A stretch of DNA of 64,000 nt, taken from IMG/VR virus record IMGVR_UViG_3300028364_000013; one strand, 5' to 3'. The stretch is from a virus (Duplodnaviria > Caudoviricetes). Of this stretch, positions 3,173-37,103 are shown in pieces (the stretch's first letter is position 1; every line of letters starts with the position of its first letter). Made by a program: the position numbers and the translations under genes. The notes beneath the pieces are model-generated. The model was not told the DNA's origin, ran no database searches, and worked only from the letters and a program-made list of their open reading frames with translations.

Positions 3173-3568
3173 TTATTTCAAATCTTTAAGTTTCTTTGTA
3201 AAATCTTTTGACACTTTATCAGACTTAACGTTTTCATCAATTCTTTTCTGGCGAATAACATAAGCACCATAAGCTTTTTCTCCTTCAGCAAGAATTTGTT
3301 TCTTCACAGCATTTAAGTCATGAGAATAAATAACCTTAGTTTCATGTCTATCGAATTCATCAATAGCATTTTCGACTGCTGAAGAAAAAGTTCCTTTTCT
3401 CCAAACACTTCGTACATAATGCTTTTGGTCAAGAGAACTGTCTAATACATAAAACCTGTCTTCACTTGGTTTTCCTTTGGCTTCTTCGTTCTTCCATTGA
3501 GGACCTACTACAACCATATACTCAAGACCTCTTGATTCAAGGAATTGTTCTAAATTTTGAATTTTCAT
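3173..3568 (-). CDS. hypothetical protein
   Basis: ORF overlaps neighbour by 4 nt. Confidence 0.65.
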   Translation of the reverse strand: MKIQNLEQFLESRGLEYMVVVGPQWKNEEAKGKPSEDRFYVLDSSLDQKHYVRSVWRKGTFSSAVENAIDEFDRHETKVIYSHDLNAVKKQILAEGEKAYGAYVIRQKRIDENVKSDKVSKDFTKKLKDLK

Positions 3569-3975: not shown

Positions 3976-4090
3976 GTTATCTGGAGTGTTCTCCTCGTTT
4001 CTATTGTACCAAGCCTGAATTGGTGCTCAATATGTTTTTTGTTGCCAATCTGGCAATATTGATATATCTACTGCTTCCATAATTTTATTT

Positions 4091-4399
4091 TTACATGCTT
4101 GCATAAATTTGAAATCCATCTCCATCATCTGAGATTTCTACTCCATAAGATATAGCTTTTTTAACATCTTCTTCTGTAAAATCCTGGAATATTTCCATAC
4201 CACTTCCTATATACATCACATCATGTTCTCCATGAAAGAAATTTCTCTCACCTTTATTCTCTGGCTTGAGTTTATCATATAAAAACATGATAGCACAAAT
4301 CTGTCTGGCCTCGTACTGAGGTTCAATCAATGGGTCTCCATATGAATGTTCTTCTTCAAACCTTTCAAACCACTCTTCTAATTGTTCTTCGTTTTCCAT
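4091..4399 (-). CDS. hypothetical protein
   Basis: acidic ORF in operon. Confidence 0.65.
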   Translation of the reverse strand: MENEEQLEEWFERFEEEHSYGDPLIEPQYEARQICAIMFLYDKLKPENKGERNFFHGEHDVMYIGSGMEIFQDFTEEDVKKAISYGVEISDDGDGFQIYASM

Positions 4400-4401
4400 A
4401 A

Positions 4402-4593
4402 TTATCCTTTTGATGGCGTGTTAATAACCATTATTTCTACTTTCATTTCAAGAGATAGCTCTGCTTCACAATCTCCACAAATCTCCAACGTTCCATTGTA
4501 TGGTTCCTCACACAAGCTTTCTAATTCACCTGCAAGGTCATGTCCACAATTGGGACACTGAATATTCATTGTACTATAAGTTCCTATTTCCAT
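4402..4593 (-). CDS. small Zn-ribbon protein
   Basis: CPNC...CGDC. Confidence 0.6.
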   Translation of the reverse strand: MEIGTYSTMNIQCPNCGHDLAGELESLCEEPYNGTLEICGDCEAELSLEMKVEIMVINTPSKG

Positions 4594-4770
4594 TATGCTA
4601 ACATTTTTTTAAGTTCATCAAGTGTAATAACTTCCTTTCCAAGGCCTTTTGCTTTAACAACCTTGCTGCTTCCAGAGCTTGGGTCTTTACACACAAGGTG
4701 AGTAATCTTTGCGCTTACTCCAGAAGCAATAGTTCCACCTTTATCAACAATGATGGTTTTGAGGTTTTTA
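4593..4770 (-). pseudogene. orphan C-terminal BRCT fragment (NAD-dependent ligase tail)
   Basis: LKTIIVDKGGTIASGVSAKITHLVCKDPSSGSSKVVKAKGLGKEVITLDEL matches BRCT consensus; N-terminal strand and a plausible start missing. Confidence 0.75.
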
Positions 4771-5232
4771 ATTATTTTTAAATTTTCTATATAAACGTGC
4801 AACATTTCCACTTGTGTGGCATCCAATTTTACCTTTGTATGTTGGCACCCCAATTTTATTCAACTCTTTCGTTATTTGCTCGTAATTCAAACCCTTTTGT
4901 TTTAATTCATCAATTATTTTAAATATCTGTAAATTTTTCTCATCTGTCAAGGAGTCAATTCTCTTTTTTTGAGCACCTTTAACCCTATGTTCGTATTTAA
5001 GGTTCTCAGGCTTACCAAGTACAACCCCTCTCTCTTTCGCTCTTTTTAACCCCTCTATTGTCAATCTTCTATGCTCTGGCCTGTTCTTTAAACCATGAAC
5101 TTTACAATGACATTTTACACAAAGAGGTATTGTTTTATTTCCACCTCTTGATTTAGGTATAACATGATGATTTTCTTCTGCTGGCTCATCACATTCAAAA
5201 CAAATATCAGTATCTATTACAATTTTCGCCAT
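4768..5232 (-). CDS. HNH endonuclease with C-terminal recombinase-type DNA-binding region
   Basis: CFEC..HHVIP..RGG...LC..CH..VH; GVVLGKP and ITKELNKIG segments. Confidence 0.8.
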   Translation of the reverse strand: MAKIVIDTDICFECDEPAEENHHVIPKSRGGNKTIPLCVKCHCKVHGLKNRPEHRRLTIEGLKRAKERGVVLGKPENLKYEHRVKGAQKKRIDSLTDEKNLQIFKIIDELKQKGLNYEQITKELNKIGVPTYKGKIGCHTSGNVARLYRKFKNN

Positions 5233-5329
5233 TAATTATTATACGAATTTAAACCAATAATGTTTCATAAAAGTATGATAAAAATATAATTTTTACTTTT
5301 TATTTACTATTTATAAGAAACAAATAAAT

Positions 5330-5482
5330 ATGGGAAGACCAAAATTAAAAGAAAAAGAAAAGAAAGCAAGACTTGGGATTACAATTTCTAAAGAATTAAA
5401 TAAACTTCTTGGTATAGAGACACCTAATAAGTCTGGGTTTATAGAGAACTTAATTCAAAAATATTTCGATGAAAAAAAATAA
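5330..5482 (+). CDS. 50-aa ribbon-helix-helix-like protein (not in ORF track)
   Basis: MGRPKLKEKEKKARLGITISKELNKLLGIETPNKSGFIENLIQKYFDEKK; overlaps endonuclease start. Confidence 0.7.
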   Translation: MGRPKLKEKEKKARLGITISKELNKLLGIETPNKSGFIENLIQKYFDEKK

Positions 5483-6443
5483 TATAGTAAACCACATCAG
5501 CTATAACAAATTGCTTCAGGAATTTCACCCAAAAAAAAACAATGATGTTAAATTATTGGATTTTAGTCATGGAAGTCATAAAAAAGTCTGGTGGAAGTGT
5601 AGCGCTTCTTATGACCACGAGTGGGAAGCTACAATAAACCACAGAGCTCAAGGACGTGGGTGTCCATTTTGTAGCGGTAAGAAAGTTGCTGAATCAAACG
5701 CTTTGTCAACAACTCATCCAGAAATAGCAAAAGAGTGGCATCCAACAAAAAACACCTTGACACCAGACGATATAACTTTTGGTAGTGAAAAAAATATTTG
5801 GTGGAAATGCGATATTGCTGACGACCATGAATGGGAGACAACAGTTAAACATAGGTCAAGTGGAAATGGTTGCCCTTGTTGTTCTGGTTATAAAGTTGTA
5901 AACTCTAACTCTCTTACCACACAACACTCAGAATTATCAAAAGAATGGCATCCAACAAAAAATGGAGTAATAACTCCAAATGATGTATCTGGTGGTCATC
6001 GCAAAGTATGGTGGATATGTTCGCAAGATGGTAACCATCAATGGAAGGCTTCTATAAAAGATAGAATAAGAGGTAGGAGATGCCCTCATTGTCATTATCC
6101 TAAAAGCAAAGGTCACCTAAAAATAGAAAAAATACTTATTGATAATAATATTAATTTTGAAACAGAGAAAAAGTTTGATGATTGTGTGTTCAAAAGAATG
6201 CTTAGATTTGATATTTATTTACCAACCTTAAATGCTTTAGTTGAATATGATGGAAGACAACATACCAATGCAGTTGATATATTTGGAGGTAAAAAAGAAT
6301 TGGTTAAAACCCAGAAAAGAGATAAAATAAAAGATGAATATGCTAAAAATAACAATATTCATCTTTTAAGAATTTCTCACAAAGAATTCAAAAATATTGA
6401 GTCAATTGTGTTAGATTATTTGAAGGTAATTACAAACTCTTAA
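5469..6443 (+). CDS. putative homing endonuclease: tandem Zn-ribbon repeats + Vsr/DUF559-like nuclease domain
   Basis: Repeats HP.KN....VWWKC....HEW.......GCP.C; C-terminal RFDIYLP...VEYDGRQH. Confidence 0.8.
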   Translation: MKKNNIVNHISYNKLLQEFHPKKNNDVKLLDFSHGSHKKVWWKCSASYDHEWEATINHRAQGRGCPFCSGKKVAESNALSTTHPEIAKEWHPTKNTLTPDDITFGSEKNIWWKCDIADDHEWETTVKHRSSGNGCPCCSGYKVVNSNSLTTQHSELSKEWHPTKNGVITPNDVSGGHRKVWWICSQDGNHQWKASIKDRIRGRRCPHCHYPKSKGHLKIEKILIDNNINFETEKKFDDCVFKRMLRFDIYLPTLNALVEYDGRQHTNAVDIFGGKKELVKTQKRDKIKDEYAKNNNIHLLRISHKEFKNIESIVLDYLKVITNS

Positions 6444-7848
6444 CAGATTCCTCAATGATTTTTGCAGTTTCAAGTGAATCAAACTCTGTTTTGTCTTCTC
6501 TGATTTCAACAACAGATGGGTGCATTGTTGACCAATTACCATCCCTATCTTGAGATAATCCTTTACAGTTTATCTCAACAATTTTTCCCATTAATTTATC
6601 TTGATTATCAGTTACATACTGCATCATCTTTTCATCCATATTTGATGGGTTTGTTTTCAAAAATCCACAAGAACTTTCTAAACTTAGAGTAGAAATCCAT
6701 TTTTCATTTTTTGTTCCTGGAGTTCCCATTTGAAAGCCCACAATTTTAAGGTCAATGTTCATATCAAGCTTCATTTTCACTTGCCAATTAGGCTTCCCAT
6801 CTTTCCATGCCCCTTTATAATCCTTCAATATTGTACCCTCAAGACCTCTCTCAAGCGCTTCAATGAAATGCTCCATTGATTCCTTAACAGTTGTAACTTC
6901 TTTTGTCTCAACAAGCTCTATTCGAGTTGGTTGTTTATTAACAAGAATAGATTTCAATTCTTCAAAACGCTCTTTATAAGGTCTCTTTGAATTTTTATTG
7001 TAATACTCATCAACTGTGATAACATCCCAACATGTATAAACTACAGAGTCTAAAGCTTCTTGAAATGTTAAATCATCTTTTCCAAAATCAGACTTATGCT
7101 TCTTCAAAAATGCATCAATCTTTTTTTGAGTTTCAATAAGACCACGTTCATCTTCTTTAAGTTGAATGTCAACAAGAGACGAAACAATTCCATTGGCTGT
7201 TCTTCTAACTGGAACGCCTATAACTGTAAGTTCTCCATTTAATACAATTTCATCTCCAATATCAGATAACTCTTTAATAAACCTTGCATCTTTAAGTCCA
7301 TTTGGCTCTCCAGCTCTACTTACAAACTCCACTTCTCCGTCACGAACAATTGCGTTTGCATAGCGACCATCCATCTTAATTTGACTCAAGGCCACACCCT
7401 TTTTAATAATAGTCTCAACAAGTTTTTTATCATAAGACTTAGCTCCCATATAAGGAGTTTTTTCAACAAGGCCATCAATTACCTTGTTTACATTGGTTCT
7501 TCCCATTCCAATTTTTAAATCCTTTTCAATAATTCGAATAACAACATATTGGTCTTCAATATTTATTGAGCTTAGTATATGTTGAAGGTGATTTGTTGCT
7601 ACTCCTCCAGTGAATTCTCTTGATGATAATCTTGATAATTCATCAACAGCCCATCCAAGCCCTTTGTCTTCTCCAATGTATTGAAATTCTGGGATTTGTT
7701 TTATGTAGAATTTAACTCTCTTTGACATTGCTTGATATAGTACATCTTTCAATAACTCATTATCTGAGTATTTTTTAAGAATTTCAATTTTAGCATTTGT
7801 TCCTGGCTCTGCAGAAATCTCATCAAGTATTGATTTTATTGTTGTCAT
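6430..7848 (-). CDS. lig: ATP-dependent DNA ligase (T4 gp30-like)
   Basis: Motif I KMDG, motif III NGEL, motif IV EGTILK, motif V KMK, OB domain. Confidence 0.92.
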   Translation of the reverse strand: MTTIKSILDEISAEPGTNAKIEILKKYSDNELLKDVLYQAMSKRVKFYIKQIPEFQYIGEDKGLGWAVDELSRLSSREFTGGVATNHLQHILSSINIEDQYVVIRIIEKDLKIGMGRTNVNKVIDGLVEKTPYMGAKSYDKKLVETIIKKGVALSQIKMDGRYANAIVRDGEVEFVSRAGEPNGLKDARFIKELSDIGDEIVLNGELTVIGVPVRRTANGIVSSLVDIQLKEDERGLIETQKKIDAFLKKHKSDFGKDDLTFQEALDSVVYTCWDVITVDEYYNKNSKRPYKERFEELKSILVNKQPTRIELVETKEVTTVKESMEHFIEALERGLEGTILKDYKGAWKDGKPNWQVKMKLDMNIDLKIVGFQMGTPGTKNEKWISTLSLESSCGFLKTNPSNMDEKMMQYVTDNQDKLMGKIVEINCKGLSQDRDGNWSTMHPSVVEIREDKTEFDSLETAKIIEESVKSL

Positions 7849-7859
7849 AATTTTTGTTT

Positions 7860-7916
7860 TTAAGCTTCGTTAGCTTCTCTAATTTTAGAAACCAGTTCAT
7901 TTGTTGCTGTACTCAT
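7860..7916 (-). pseudogene. 18-codon stub resembling the N-terminus of NAD-dependent DNA ligase
   Basis: MSTATNELVSKIREANEA* resembles LigA domain Ia start (eL...i..an.aY); stop falls where Tyr is expected. Confidence 0.6.
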
Positions 7917-7925
7917 AATTTTTAT

Positions 7926-8141
7926 TTAATGTCTGGCAGCAATGCACTGCCCAGTTGGTTTAATATCTAATTCTCCTTTATAGTTTGTGAACTCCACCAT
8001 AATTCTTCCATATTGGTCAGCAAATCCACTAACGCAACCACCCATGCTACTTGGCATATTTGAATATAATTTTAGCCTGAGCCTTTTGCTTACTATTGAT
8101 TTTCTAATCTTTTTTCTAAAGCTTCCTTTTGGTTTTTTCAT
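7926..8141 (-). CDS. hypothetical protein
   Basis: ORF in operon. Confidence 0.55.
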   Translation of the reverse strand: MKKPKGSFRKKIRKSIVSKRLRLKLYSNMPSSMGGCVSGFADQYGRIMVEFTNYKGELDIKPTGQCIAARH

Positions 8142-9239
8142 TTATGCTCTTTTAAAACTTTTTAACGCTTTTTTGATTTCACTTGGAGTTGATTCCATAG
8201 ACATTCTCCAATAATCCATTCTTGGATTCATAATATTGTTATCAAATCCAACATTAAATAACCCATTAACGAAAGACATAACTTCGTCCTTTGGAATCTT
8301 TGTTCCAGTTACTTCCATGTCAGAAAAATAAGAATGCTTAACCTTTCCAGTCATGCCATCGAAACAAAATTCTGCAAGACCTTTGATTTCTTGAAATTCG
8401 TCTCTTGTAAGTTGGTATTGCTTTCCAGTGTAATCACCAGAATACATTTGACAATCTACAATTGTTCCTTCTGGAGCGTTAATTACTTTAAAGTCATTTT
8501 CATTGTAATACTTTTTATGAATCGCAACCTCAAGTGTATAATATCCATCACTCTTTATTTCTGGAAGAACTCCAAACTCCTTTGAATCTATTCGTGTTGT
8601 ACTTTCTCTTAGCTCAATCCAAATACTGTGGTGAAGAGAGTTGTATTCTCTATCGCCATCTTCAATATTTGAATCAATCTCTTCCTTGGCTTTGTCAGAA
8701 GTTTTGTTATCAATTACAATATATCCTGTTGGCATCTTGAAGTCTCTACTAACAACACAACTTTGGTCTTTAATAGAAAATTCTCCACCAATCCACGAGA
8801 AGTAATTTGAACTCCCGTTCATAAAATCTCCAATACTATCTCCAACTCTCTTAAGTTTTTTTATTGCATTAACAGCTTCTTGACTCATTCCGAGCCTTTC
8901 TGTTTCATGAAGAGTACATCCAATACTCCCACCTCCTGCTGGTGAAAAATCTTGGTCAAAATCTGAAGCTTCAAGTGTGTCAACAATAATATTGCCTTTG
9001 TATTCAGTAACAAGAACTTTTAGACCACTTACATTCTTTGGTCCATTATTCAATAAATCTGTAAGGTTTTGGATGTCACTCTCAAATAACTCCACTTGAC
9101 CTTCTGACCAAGAAAGGTCTTTCTTAGCTCCAGACTCTTTATAAAACTCAATTGTTTTTTTCTCATCATCAAGTTTCTTTTGAGTATAATCAATTGTTCC
9201 TTTGATGCTCTCTGGCGAATTTCTATCTCTCATGTCCAT
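8142..9239 (-). CDS. hypothetical protein
   Basis: 365-aa ORF. Confidence 0.8.
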   Translation of the reverse strand: MDMRDRNSPESIKGTIDYTQKKLDDEKKTIEFYKESGAKKDLSWSEGQVELFESDIQNLTDLLNNGPKNVSGLKVLVTEYKGNIIVDTLEASDFDQDFSPAGGGSIGCTLHETERLGMSQEAVNAIKKLKRVGDSIGDFMNGSSNYFSWIGGEFSIKDQSCVVSRDFKMPTGYIVIDNKTSDKAKEEIDSNIEDGDREYNSLHHSIWIELRESTTRIDSKEFGVLPEIKSDGYYTLEVAIHKKYYNENDFKVINAPEGTIVDCQMYSGDYTGKQYQLTRDEFQEIKGLAEFCFDGMTGKVKHSYFSDMEVTGTKIPKDEVMSFVNGLFNVGFDNNIMNPRMDYWRMSMESTPSEIKKALKSFKRA

Positions 9240-34126: not shown

Positions 34127-35092
34127 TGTTCTATATTTATAAAACTCTTGTGATTCTAATTGTTTAAAATTTAATAAATTTAAAACTATTTCAGGAGAAT
34201 TGTTATACAAATCCACAAAATAAATCTCTTTATCAATTTTCCATAAAATTATTAATCCAATATTATTTTCTTTACAATATTTTTCTTTTATTTTATCTCT
34301 TTTCTGTGTCTCTTTTAATTTTTCGATTCCACCGAAATATTCAACAGATTCAAAATGTTGATTTCCATGATATTCTATACACACATTTTGTTTTGGCAAA
34401 TAAAAATCAAATTTTAAATGCAAAATATATTTACAATCATTAAATTTTTTCTCACCTTCCAACTTTACCATGTTTTCTTTTAAAATTTTATAAATCATTT
34501 TTTCTCCATTTGAAAACTTGCACTTAGGACACCCATCGCCTCTTTTATGTGCGTTAGGGGTTTGCTTAAAATCACCATGATTTGAACATATGATAGATAC
34601 TTTTTTCATACAATTATCATAATTAACTTTTGAGTAATCATATTTATCTCCATGAACTAATTTAGAATCAGATATAAACTCTTTCAATGTCAATCTTGAT
34701 TTATTTGCATTTAATTTAATTCCACACTTTATACAACCATATTTTAAATGATTTTTAGGAGTTTGTTTAAACTCTCCATGTTCTGGACAAATAATTTTTA
34801 CTGCTTTTAAAGAATTGTTGTATTGAACTAGAGAGTAATCGTATTTATTTGTATGTATATTCCTCACCTTTTTAATAAATTCTTCAGTCGTTATATTTTT
34901 GTTAACACATTTTGGACACCCCTGTCCTCTAAAATGTTTTTCTGCAGATTGTTCAAAAATACCATGTTCTGAACAAATAATTTCAACCTTCAATTTACTC
35001 CCTAAATATTCAACAAGTGAATAATCATATTTGTATTCATGAATTTTATTTGACCTTTCTGTAAACTCTTCTGTTGTTAGTTTTACTGACAT
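34112..35092 (-). CDS. putative homing endonuclease: YDYS/IC..HG repeats + Vsr/DUF559-like nuclease
   Basis: 3 repeats KYDYS.V.Y.....V.IIC..HG.F.Q; KFDFYLP...IEYHGNQH. Confidence 0.8.
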   Translation of the reverse strand: MSVKLTTEEFTERSNKIHEYKYDYSLVEYLGSKLKVEIICSEHGIFEQSAEKHFRGQGCPKCVNKNITTEEFIKKVRNIHTNKYDYSLVQYNNSLKAVKIICPEHGEFKQTPKNHLKYGCIKCGIKLNANKSRLTLKEFISDSKLVHGDKYDYSKVNYDNCMKKVSIICSNHGDFKQTPNAHKRGDGCPKCKFSNGEKMIYKILKENMVKLEGEKKFNDCKYILHLKFDFYLPKQNVCIEYHGNQHFESVEYFGGIEKLKETQKRDKIKEKYCKENNIGLIILWKIDKEIYFVDLYNNSPEIVLNLLNFKQLESQEFYKYRTLRDK

Positions 35093-35246: not shown

Positions 35247-35303
35247 TGTAATATTGTATATTTGTGTTACAATTATAAATAGTAATAAAAATAAAAATCA
35301 TAT

Positions 35304-35460
35304 ATGAATAGAAAACCACTTGGATATTGGACAAAAGAATTATATCATGAAACAGCTCTAAAGTGTGATTCAAGAAGTGAGTTTCAAAAAAAATATAGTG
35401 GAGCTTATCAAGCTGCTTATAGCAATGGTTGGCTCGATGAAATTTGTCCCCATATGAGAC
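35304..35460 (+). pseudogene. endonuclease-associated DNA-binding repeat fragment
   Basis: GYWTKE....ALKC.SRSEF.KKYSGAY.AA..NGWLDEICPHM. Confidence 0.55.
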
Positions 35461-35704
35461 GATACAAACCTGCGTTATCATTCCAATCATGACTCAATAC
35501 TCAAGAATGCTTTATAGAAATTTATTGTACACAGGACTTACAAGAGCAAAGAAGTTGGCTGTATTTGTTGGACAACGTAAGGCGTTTAATATGGCGATTG
35601 ATAATGTTGACCCAAGAGCAAGACAAACCTCCTTAAAAGAGCTGTTAATTGAGACTGGGATTATAAAAAAAGGAGTTAATCTTTTACGACAACTCCTTCT
35701 TTAA
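35460..35704 (+). pseudogene. second, diverged copy of RecD2 C-terminus
   Basis: CVIIPIMTQYSRMLYRNLLYTGLTRAKKLAVFVGQRK...RQTSLKELLIE aligns to the end of 31829-34126. Confidence 0.85.
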
Positions 35705-37035: not shown

Positions 37036-37103
37036 AAAAATACAAAGAAAAATTATGAAAGTAAAGAACTTATCCCATTATACGAAAAAAAAATAAAAAT
37101 GTT

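What the first reader, a model, noticed from the sequence alone, without database searches (positions are those of the whole stretch)
4593..7916. NAD-dependent ligase apparently replaced in place by an ATP-dependent ligase cassette, leaving both ends behind
Seen, in minus-strand order: stub MSTATNELVSKIREANEA* (7916-7860), intact ATP ligase, convergent endonuclease plus RHH gene, HNH gene, then a startless BRCT half-domain ending at 4593. Known: LigA begins with a helix like ELxxxIxxANxAY and ends in a BRCT domain, whereas T4-type ATP ligases have neither. Inference: the middle of ligA was exchanged for a non-homologous ligase delivered with endonucleases, a snapshot of nuclease-driven non-orthologous gene displacement.
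Basis: partly seen in the sequence, partly recalled or inferred. Interest (0 to 1): 0.85.

Follow-up and report, generated by a model that had tools for sequence, protein, structure and literature searches.

The report
Phage NAD ligase overwritten by ATP ligase
In a large uncultured lake phage the middle of the NAD-dependent DNA ligase gene was replaced, in place, by an unrelated ATP-dependent ligase gene plus homing-endonuclease genes, and relatives still carry the intact "before" gene at the same spot, so this is a rare direct record of one essential enzyme displacing another.

Summary

**The stubs are ligA ends.**
- The 18-codon stub (7916-7860) and the startless BRCT piece (4771-4593) match the two ends of one family of phage LigA proteins.
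- Match strength is 16/18 residues and a 23-nt exact run at the 5' end, and 44/58 residues at the 3' end.

**Relatives carry the intact gene at the same place.**
- Five collinear relatives hold an intact ligA in this slot.
- In contig L080 it starts 2 nt after the homolog of the window's 365-aa gene. It is followed, one gene later, by the start of the 63-aa gene's homolog.
- Other relatives (L002, L082, L083, L085) hold the ATP ligase there with no stubs.
- In-place ligA to ATP-ligase displacement is therefore well supported.

**New points.**
- The same left junction occurs in four lineages (window, L001, L081, L084) whose ATP ligases differ by up to about 19% in protein sequence.
- The stub is far better conserved than neutral sites, so this is not a fleeting snapshot.
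- Every stub-bearing allele whose 3' side can be seen (3 of 3) has a convergent homing endonuclease gene.
- Window and L001 show sharp 99.8% to about 65% identity steps, typical of endonuclease-linked gene conversion.

That a nuclease drove the swap remains circumstantial. An earlier scan note (e1-4904781, unchecked) describes an analogous ligA-destroying element in a bacterium.

The parts
8142..9239 (-). 365-aa gene of unknown function; conserved upstream anchor of the ligase slot
   Evidence: Its homolog lies directly upstream of intact ligA in L080 (83% aa, 76.7% nt). It lies upstream of ligA in L076 (75.6% aa). It lies directly upstream of a stub-less ATP ligase in L083 (57.9% aa).
7926..8141 (-). 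71-aa orphan gene between the anchor and the stub
   Evidence: No relative was found in viral contigs. It is absent from L080, L076, L001, L081 and L084, each of which has a different gene or none here.
7860..7916 (-). 5' remnant of ligA: 18 codons plus a stop created at the junction (ligA TAY Tyr codon reads TAA)
   Evidence: 16/18 residues identical to the LigA P0153 N-terminus. 23-nt exact run with L067 ligA. Second-best genome-wide tblastn hit of LigA. The same stub and junction occur in L001, L081 and L084.
7849..7859 (-). 11-nt A-rich spacer, native 5' leader of the ATP ligase gene
   Evidence: CTTAAAAA(A)CAA is shared with the region upstream of the stub-less ATP ligase of L002. Equivalent 11-13 nt spacers occur in L001, L081 and L084.
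6430..7848 (-). Intact T4-type ATP-dependent DNA ligase (472 aa), the only ligase found in the held record
   Evidence: PF01068 E 1.2e-16, phrog_114 E 1.3e-102, PDB 6dt1 E 4e-35. No NAD-ligase adenylation domain in the 168.6-kb record. 81-92% aa identity to the ligases of collinear relatives. Mosaic against L001: 99.8% nt identity for 7848-6821, then about 65%.
5469..6443 (+). Free-standing homing endonuclease gene (3x DUF4379 zinc fingers plus Vsr-like nuclease), convergent with and overlapping the ligase 3' end
   Evidence: Pfam and PHROG hits. DNA similarity to 'VSR homing endonuclease' and 'group I intron protein' genes of Staphylococcus phages. A homolog sits at the same place in L081 (59% over 70 aa). 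It is replaced by a GIY-YIG gene in L001 and absent in L002 and L082.
5330..5482 (+). 50-aa basic protein gene heading the endonuclease operon (regulator? RHH fold not confirmed)
   Evidence: 88% aa identical in L001, although the endonuclease gene behind it differs. No family hit. The AlphaFold model shows two helices.
5233..5329 (.). Divergent intergenic region between the 50-aa gene and the HNH gene
   Evidence: Almost identical to L001. Holds TTCGTATAAT just upstream of the HNH start; this motif occurs only twice in the window.
4768..5232 (-). HNH endonuclease gene with C-terminal helix-turn-helix-like part; its stop codon marks the right junction
   Evidence: Weak HNH hits plus phrog_125 (invertase-type DNA-binding part). 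The first ~130 nt are ~85% identical to L001's HNH gene, then unrelated. Its only other relative is 42% identical.
4593..4771 (-). 3' remnant of ligA: last 58 codons plus stop (C-terminal two thirds of the BRCT domain), no start codon
   Evidence: PF00533 E 2.7e-8, profile positions 22-77/78. 44/58 residues identical to P0157. 84% nt identity to L080 ligA over 163 nt, including the TAATG overlap with the next gene. Junction mapped by alignment.
4402..4593 (-). 63-aa zinc-ribbon gene, downstream neighbour
   Evidence: Only itself in 5.8 billion proteins. Its first 11 codons match the gene start at the end of L080 (MNIKTYSTENM against MEIGTYSTMNI).
3173..3568 (-). 131-aa gene; conserved downstream anchor
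   Evidence: A 70% aa homolog lies directly downstream of intact ligA in L076/L077.

Best explanation
An ancestor of this phage carried a ~615-aa NAD-dependent ligase gene (ligA) in a fixed slot of a collinear gene block. About 1.6 kb of that gene (codons ~20-555) was replaced by about 3.1 kb. The lost part comprises the rest of domain Ia, the adenylation, OB and HhH parts, and the first third of BRCT. The incoming DNA came from a related phage that keeps a T4-type ATP-dependent ligase in the same slot.

The left junction joins ligA codon 18 to the ATP ligase's own short leader and turns the next Tyr codon into a stop. The present right junction is the stop codon of an HNH endonuclease gene. 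The ATP ligase now supplies the ligase function, and the two ligA ends cannot make a ligase.

The most likely route (inferred) has three steps:
1. During co-infection, a double-strand break occurred in or near ligA, plausibly made by one of the free-standing homing endonucleases that travel with the ATP ligase.
2. The break was resected and repaired from the ATP-ligase phage. Because the two genes share no homology, the joints were illegitimate or used microhomology (CTTA).
3. Only a recombinant that expressed the incoming ligase was viable.

The composite allele then persisted or spread. It is now found in at least four diverged lineages and keeps exchanging segments with relatives by endonuclease-linked gene conversion.
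For: **Shown**
- Both stubs are ligA ends.
- Intact ligA sits in the same slot in L080, L076/L077, L078, L079 and L067, bracketed by homologs of the window's 365-aa, 139-aa, 131-aa and 76-aa genes.
- A stub-less ATP ligase sits in the same slot in L002, L082 and L083. In L083 it lies directly after the 365-aa homolog.
- No NAD-ligase catalytic domain occurs in the held record.
- The ATP ligase is full length and T4-like.
- The identical left junction GCT|TAAAAA occurs in window, L001, L081 and L084, each with a different upstream gene.

**Circumstantial support for nuclease involvement**
- A convergent endonuclease gene abuts the ligase in 3 of 3 stub-bearing alleles whose 3' side is visible (window, L081, L001). 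None abuts it in L002 or L082.
- Window against L001 shows 99.8% identity over 1,020 nt of the ligase.
- Next comes a ~65% block made of the ligase 3' end plus a different endonuclease gene.
- After that block identity returns to ~99%. [quoted passage not shown]
Against: - No cleavage site is known, and no target-like similarity was found between ligA and the endonuclease-free ATP-ligase allele.
- Microhomology at the left joint is only 4-5 nt in AT-rich DNA.
- The endonuclease genes turn over quickly: Vsr-type in the window and L081, GIY-YIG in L001, LAGLIDADG near the ligase in stub-less L083. They may therefore have arrived after the swap.
- The right junction is not shared with L001, so it may be secondary.
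- Only 168.6 kb of a genome that another assembly puts at 364 kb could be searched, so a second ligA elsewhere is not excluded.
- The stub is too well conserved for a simple relic. Something beyond a single old accident is therefore going on.
Confidence: 0.8

Rival explanations
1. The displacement is the same, but endonucleases had no part in it. A plain illegitimate recombination between co-infecting relatives put the ATP ligase into ligA, and the homing endonuclease genes invaded the ATP-ligase locus later as ordinary selfish passengers.
For: - Stub-less relatives show the ATP ligase without any adjacent endonuclease gene (L002, L082).
- The endonuclease type differs between stub-bearing alleles.
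- The right junction is not shared by L001.
- No target-site similarity was found.
Against: - All three stub-bearing alleles with a visible 3' side carry a convergent endonuclease gene.
- The Vsr-type gene is shared by window and L081, whose ligases are only 85% identical, so the association is old.
- The HNH stop codon coincides to the base with the start of ligA homology.
Confidence: 0.35
2. The window's own lineage never lost ligA by itself. The finished composite (stub, ATP ligase, endonuclease genes) was made once elsewhere and imported by homologous recombination into this and other ligA-type phages, with the stubs acting as the crossover regions.
For: - The left edge of window-L001 similarity falls exactly at the stub's start, and the genes upstream differ in all four stub-bearing lineages.
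- The stub is 91-93% identical between window and L001, while the neighbouring genes are 46-72% aa identical and the adjacent ligase is 99.8% identical.
- Each stub's variable first codons resemble those of different intact ligA alleles.
Against: - The AU test does not reject the four stub-bearing ligases forming one clade (p 0.18), so vertical descent with turnover of flanking genes is also possible.
- 54 nt is a short arm.
- A BRCT stub is seen only in the window genotype.
Confidence: 0.3
3. The 5' stub is kept because it works. It acts as a translated 18-19-codon leader that ends 11-13 nt before the ATP ligase start. In this role it supplies ligA's original initiation signals and timing and couples translation to the new ligase.
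For: - The reading frame is intact and the stop is in the same place in all four lineages.
- Stub identity is 83-88% against 52-60% at third codon positions of the adjacent ligase (binomial P 2e-4 to 8e-8).
- The spacer is always short and A-rich.
- Stub-less ATP ligases are also tightly packed behind the upstream gene.
Against: - A coupling leader needs an open frame, not a conserved peptide, yet the helix residues DLVSKIREANEA stay conserved while synonymous sites vary, as in functional ligA.
- The third-position proxy ignores codon bias in a 33% GC genome.
- The pairs compared are not independent.
Confidence: 0.3
4. The stubs are chance similarities or an assembly chimera.
For: The 5' stub alone reaches only E 0.29 in a protein search of the genome.
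Against: - 23-nt exact run with L067 ligA.
- 16/18 residues identical with start codon aligned to start codon.
- BRCT piece at E 1.7e-17.
- Same strand and order as in an intact ligA.
- Identical sequence in independent assemblies from other runs.
- The same stub in three further lineages.
Confidence: 0.01

Closest known systems
Non-orthologous displacement of NAD-dependent by ATP-dependent DNA ligases in nucleo-cytoplasmic large DNA viruses (Yutin and Koonin 2009, PMC2806865)
   Same: The same two enzyme classes, the same direction (NAD type lost, ATP type gained), and viral genomes. The ATP ligases are partly of phage origin.
   Different: That case was inferred from phyletic patterns and trees only, with no locus-level remains. 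The authors favoured a ligase-less intermediate. Here both ends of the lost gene flank the incoming one, 'before' and 'donor-type' alleles exist in collinear relatives, and no ligase-less or two-ligase stage is needed.
Intronless homing and marker exclusion by free-standing homing endonucleases of T-even phages (SegB, SegF, SegG, MobE; Edgell et al. 2010 PMC2988022; PMC2330249; PMC2790892)
   Same: Free-standing endonuclease genes sit next to a DNA-metabolism gene, are present or absent among relatives, and show sharp identity steps consistent with co-conversion of flanking sequence.
   Different: Known cases convert one allele into a homologous allele through flanking homology. Here the converted gene and the incoming gene are unrelated and the joints lie inside the destroyed gene. 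No cleavage has been shown.
Replacement of one homing endonuclease gene by another at the same locus (SegH and Hef in place of mobC and mobE; Sandegren et al. 2005, PMC1275590, cited from the reference list of PMC2988022)
   Same: The Vsr-type gene (window, L081) and the GIY-YIG gene (L001) occupy the same position behind the same 50-aa gene, each with its own version of the ligase 3' end.
recA mobile element of Vibrio cholerae S24 (Rapa et al., PMC4405046)
   Same: A mobile segment sits inside a core DNA-metabolism gene and brings a working substitute for it.
   Different: That element is a bacterial genomic island that excises as a circle, targets a specific site and carries a homologous (23% divergent) recA. 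Here the substitute is non-homologous, no integrase is present, and the middle of the target gene is deleted.
Homing endonuclease insertion that splits a gene into working pieces (Aeromonas phage Aeh1 nrdA; Friedrich et al. 2007, PMC1851037, cited from PMC2988022)
   Same: An endonuclease gene lies inside the coding region of an essential phage replication-related gene.
   Different: There both halves stay functional. Here all catalytic parts of ligA are gone, and the function passes to another enzyme.

Membership tests
NAD-dependent DNA ligase LigA (for the two stubs) | N-terminal helix of domain Ia (…L..KI..AN.AYY/AYR…) starting at the initiator Met | tested here: met
   16/18 residues identical to P0153 and 12-13/16 to L067, P0156 and P0157. 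Nucleotide alignment with five intact ligA genes.
NAD-dependent DNA ligase LigA (for the two stubs) | Adenylation domain with the catalytic lysine, OB fold and HhH region | tested here: not met
   PF01653 search of the 168.6-kb record found nothing. tblastn with two intact LigAs finds only the two ends. The locus is a remnant, not a ligA gene.
NAD-dependent DNA ligase LigA (for the two stubs) | C-terminal BRCT domain | tested here: inconclusive
   Only profile positions 22-77 of 78 are present (E 2.7e-8). The first strand and part of helix 1 are missing and there is no start codon. It is clearly homologous but not a whole domain.
T4-type ATP-dependent DNA ligase | Nucleotidyltransferase domain with KxDG motif, flanked by an N-terminal DNA-binding domain and a C-terminal OB domain, full length | tested here: met
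   PF01068 residues 136-360 E 1.2e-16. PF04675 weak. KMDG seen in the translation. phrog_114 E 1.3e-102. Matches T4 DNA ligase 6dt1 over residues 4-460, E 4e-35.
T4-type ATP-dependent DNA ligase | ATP-dependent nick sealing | not testable with these tools
   Needs an enzyme assay or complementation of a ligA(ts) host.
Free-standing homing endonuclease genes | Recognisable nuclease fold plus DNA-binding modules | tested here: met
   324-aa protein: 3x DUF4379 E 2.7e-58, phrog_559, phrog_9084 'homing endonuclease'. 154-aa protein: HNH pattern, only sub-threshold Pfam hits; its L001 homolog passes PF01844. L001 has GIY-YIG plus NUMOD3.
Free-standing homing endonuclease genes | Presence or absence polymorphism among otherwise collinear relatives | tested here: met
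   Absent next to the ligase in L002 and L082, present in window, L001 and L081, and a different type in L083.
Free-standing homing endonuclease genes | Co-conversion tracts around the gene | tested here: met
   Identity steps of 99.8%, ~65% and ~99% between window and L001 around the endonuclease gene. This is consistent with conversion but not proof of it.
Free-standing homing endonuclease genes | Site-specific cleavage of the allele that lacks the gene (here: ligA or the endonuclease-free ATP-ligase allele) | not testable with these tools
   No target site could be inferred. Needs in vitro cleavage mapping.
Group I intron or intein interrupting ligA | Intron RNA structure or in-frame intein, with exons that together encode a whole protein | tested here: not met
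   No Rfam intron hit at E<=1 in 4000-8300. The insert holds four genes on both strands. The ligA catalytic exons do not exist.

The most novel reading that the evidence does not exclude
The composite is a natural 'cleave-and-rescue' replacement cassette.
- One of its endonucleases cuts intact ligA of co-infecting relatives inside the part the cassette lacks.
- The break is repaired from the cassette genome, with the conserved ligA ends serving as homology arms.
- The ATP ligase cargo rescues the essential function.

The element would thus drive itself through ligA-type phage populations while switching their ligase cofactor from NAD+ to ATP.

This would explain three observations: the stub is conserved like a functional ligA end; it marks the edge of the shared block in four different genomic backgrounds; and an endonuclease gene always accompanies it.

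A speculative extra from my own knowledge, untested here: the cofactor switch could pay off under host defences that deplete NAD+.
Probability: 0.25. Interest if true: 0.9.

Novelty: new variant of a known kind. Interest (0 to 1): 0.72.

Why it matters
Non-orthologous gene displacement is usually inferred from which genomes have which gene; the event itself is almost never seen. Here the remains of the lost gene, the incoming gene, the intact 'before' allele and the donor-type allele all exist in collinear natural relatives. The joints can therefore be read to the base.

The locus shows that an essential replication enzyme can be swapped in one place without a ligase-less or two-ligase stage. 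The ligase-less stage was the route favoured for giant viruses in PMC2806865.

It also ties such a swap to homing endonuclease genes. This gives a concrete, testable case for the idea that selfish nucleases move useful cargo and reshape core phage functions.

The unexpected conservation of the 18-codon stub across four lineages raises a new question: is it a leader for expression, or a homology arm for spread?

Tried and rejected
**Searches that found nothing useful**
- Cultured-phage collection: megablast of the locus gave no match.
- Cultured-phage collection: tblastn of the BRCT piece gave no match.
- Cultured-phage collection: the 365-aa gene had only remote Caulobacter phage hits.
- Viral contigs searched with the 365-aa, 71-aa and 63-aa genes gave no usable relatives. 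The before-state contigs came instead from the LigA family search and exact-protein look-ups.
- The junction pattern in IMG/VR found only L001.

**Ideas tested and dropped**
- Intron or other RNA element: no Rfam hit in the locus or in L071.
- Shared endonuclease target between ligA and the endonuclease-free ATP-ligase allele: short-word blastn gave only noise.
- Promoter and terminator scan: counts were not above shuffles, and the host type is probably not covered.
- HNH-BRCT fusion by frameshifting: rejected. The BRCT frame is +1 to HNH, no slippery site fits, and two thirds of a BRCT domain would not fold (reading).
- RHH fold of the 50-aa protein: not confirmed.
- Faster decay of the BRCT stub: not seen. 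It has 23 private changes against 8-24 in the five other BRCT sequences compared (four intact ligA genes and L071).
- Stub-bearing ligases as separate origins: the tree splits them weakly, but the AU test (p 0.18) does not reject one clade.

**Not informative**
- HNH relatives: one locus at 42% identity, with no ligase remnant detected in it.

Full report
**What is in the window.**
The record is a 168.6-kb fragment of an uncultured virus; another assembly of the same phage reaches 364 kb. Reading the minus strand gives this order:
- a 365-aa gene (9239-8142);
- a 71-aa orphan gene (8141-7926);
- an 18-codon reading frame, MSTATNELVSKIREANEA-stop (7916-7860);
- an 11-nt A-rich spacer;
- a 472-aa ATP-dependent ligase gene (7848-6430);
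- on the other strand and convergent with it, a 50-aa gene and a 324-aa endonuclease gene (5330-6443);
- a 154-aa HNH endonuclease gene (5232-4768);
- a startless BRCT-like frame that runs from the HNH stop codon to 4593;
- a 63-aa zinc-ribbon gene whose ATG overlaps that stop.

Family searches confirm the identities.
- The ligase matches PF01068, phrog_114 (E 1.3e-102) and the T4 DNA ligase structure 6dt1 (E 4e-35) over its full length.
- The 324-aa protein has three DUF4379 zinc fingers and matches phage 'homing endonuclease' families.
- The BRCT piece covers profile positions 22-77 of 78.
- The HNH assignment is weak by Pfam but clear by motif. Its L001 homolog passes the Pfam cut-off.
- The 'RHH' label of the 50-aa protein could not be confirmed.
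- Contigs assembled independently from other sequencing runs are 100% identical over 10.6 kb and 775 nt, so the arrangement is real.

**Are the two pieces really ligA ends?** Yes.
- A search of 1.84 billion representative proteins with the BRCT piece returned phage LigA C-termini.
- A metagenome scan found contig L067 with an intact 616-aa LigA carrying adenylation, OB, HhH and BRCT domains.
- That protein begins MDITTKNDLVSKIREANKAY and ends with a BRCT domain 67% identical to the window's piece.
- At the DNA level the stub shares a 23-nt exact run with it.
- Searching that LigA against the whole held genome gives the BRCT piece as best hit (E 1.7e-17) and the stub as second best, with nothing else.
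- A targeted search then uncovered 17 members of this LigA family.
- P0153 matches the stub at 16 of 18 residues, start to start.
- P0157 matches the BRCT piece at 44 of 58 residues, including the last 15 almost exactly.

**Is ligA at this place in relatives?** Yes.
- L067 is collinear with the window's genome on both sides of the ligase slot, at 46-67% protein identity.
- L076/L077 has this order: homologs of the window's 195/139-aa genes, then the 365-aa gene's homolog (75.6%), two extra genes, intact LigA, then the homolog of the window's 131-aa gene (70%).
- L078 and L079 place LigA two genes after, or directly after, the 139-aa homolog.
- The closest 'before' state is L080. The 365-aa homolog (83% aa, 76.7% nt) ends 2 nt before an intact 624-aa LigA.
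- L080's last 163 nt of ligA are 84% identical to the window's BRCT piece, including the TAATG overlap.
- One 67-aa gene later, L080 ends with the first 11 codons of a homolog of the window's 63-aa gene.

Conversely, relatives L002, L082, L083 and L085 carry the ATP ligase (81-86% identical) with no stubs; L002, L082 and L083 place it in the same slot. In L083 it lies directly behind the 365-aa homolog. The slot therefore holds either ligase type in this phage group. Because ligA is the broken gene, the direction in the window's lineage was ligA to ATP ligase.

**The joints.**
- On the left, ligA sequence runs to codon 18 (GCT).
- The next ligA codon (TAC/TAT, Tyr) reads TAA, followed by AAACAAAAATT and the ligase ATG.
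- The stretch CTTAAAAA(A)CAA is also found upstream of the stub-less ligase of L002. The joint therefore lies within a 4-5-nt microhomology.
- On the right, ligA homology starts at the AAA codon that supplies two bases of the HNH stop codon.
- In LigA terms, residues ~20-555 are gone and about 3.1 kb has been put in.

**The allele is older and more widespread than a snapshot.**
- The same stub with the same joint precedes the ATP ligase in L001 (ligase 92% identical), L081 (85%) and L084 (86%).
- The gene upstream of the stub differs in all four.
- Between lineages the stub is 83-88% identical in DNA, with its frame and stop intact.
- Third codon positions of the adjacent ligase are only 52-60% identical (binomial P 2e-4 to 8e-8).
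- Within the stub, the first seven codons vary and the helix DLVSKIREANEA is conserved with synonymous changes, just as in intact ligA genes.
- The BRCT piece shows no excess of private changes either.

So the stubs are not decaying freely. Three explanations are possible:
- the stub serves as a translated leader for the new ligase;
- the stubs are repeatedly refreshed by recombination with intact ligA, acting as homology arms;
- the composite entered each lineage recently.

The ligase tree groups window, L001 and L081. It places L084 weakly with stub-less alleles, but an AU test does not reject a single clade (p 0.18).

**Role of the endonucleases.**
- All three stub-bearing alleles whose 3' side is visible have an endonuclease gene convergent with, and overlapping, the ligase end.
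- The type is Vsr-like in the window and in L081 (59% identical to each other) and GIY-YIG in L001.
- L002 and L082 have none.
- Window and L001 are 99.8% identical over the first 1,020 nt of the ligase gene.
- They then drop to about 65% through the ligase 3' end and have different endonuclease genes.
- They return to ~99% through the 50-aa gene and the intergenic region, and diverge again about 130 nt into the HNH gene.
- Neighbouring genes are only 46-72% identical in protein.

Such block-wise steps around endonuclease genes are what intronless homing with co-conversion produces in T-even phages (PMC2988022, PMC2330249, PMC2790892). This makes endonuclease-initiated break repair the most likely engine of exchange at this locus. 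That it also caused the original ligA loss is inference. No target site was found, and the endonuclease genes turn over fast enough to be later arrivals.

**Comparison with what is known.**
- Displacement of NAD- by ATP-dependent ligases was inferred for giant viruses from trees and gene presence, with a ligase-less intermediate favoured (PMC2806865).
- Homing endonucleases are known to replace a relative's allele by gene conversion (PMC2988022).
- A genomic island inserted in recA that carries its own recA is known in Vibrio (PMC4405046).
- An earlier, unchecked note of this scan (e1-4904781) reports a ligA-destroying element with its own NAD-type ligase in a bacterium.
- I found no paper describing an in-place swap of the two ligase classes with both ends of the old gene left behind. 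The library is limited, so absence there is not proof.

I rate this a new variant of known kinds (non-orthologous displacement combined with endonuclease-linked gene conversion). It is well documented, with an open and testable question about why the stub is conserved.

Noticed in passing
L071:1-503 (ENA contig, 503 nt): A complete BRCT coding end, 74% aa and 78% nt identical to the window's stub and sharing its KVVKAK variant. It is preceded not by ligA but by a GC-rich long hairpin and a terminator-like stem with a T run. This may be a second truncated ligA allele with another breakpoint, or an assembly chimera. No Rfam hit.
   Followed up: partly
window 6430-6820 against L001:4530-4931: The ATP ligase gene itself is mosaic. 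Its last ~390 nt are closer to stub-less L002 than to L001, while its first 1,020 nt are 99.8% identical to L001.
   Followed up: partly
window 34250-35026 and a second place outside the window (genome 119917-120660): Two more paralogs (31-35% aa) of the DUF4379/Vsr-type endonuclease, so this nuclease family has invaded several loci of the phage.
   Followed up: no
window 5238-5247 and 37077-37086; L001 near 5925 and 6530; L082 near 1555: The motif TTCGTATAAT (or a close variant) sits just upstream of the HNH gene starts and of other small genes. It occurs twice in the window against 0.18 expected. It may be a promoter type of this phage group.
   Followed up: partly
L083:7662-8540: A LAGLIDADG-type endonuclease gene lies about 240 nt downstream of the stub-less ATP ligase in another relative. 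This is a fourth nuclease family at the same slot.
   Followed up: no
L002:5143-5979 and L082:747-1532: The gene upstream of the stub-less ATP ligase ends in a long Gly/Cys/Ser repeat (…GCGSSGCGSSGCGG…), an unusual low-complexity tail of unknown role.
   Followed up: no
L068:1627-2826: A 399-aa protein made of several copies of a ~45-aa module plus a GIY-YIG core lies near another phage's ligA end. The modules also match window 35298-35573.
   Followed up: no
window 7926-8141 and 4402-4593: Both genes that touch the stubs are near-orphans: 71 aa with no relative found, and 63 aa with only itself among 5.8 billion proteins. The genes flanking the ligase slot differ in almost every relative, so the slot lies in a hyper-variable stretch.
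   Followed up: partly
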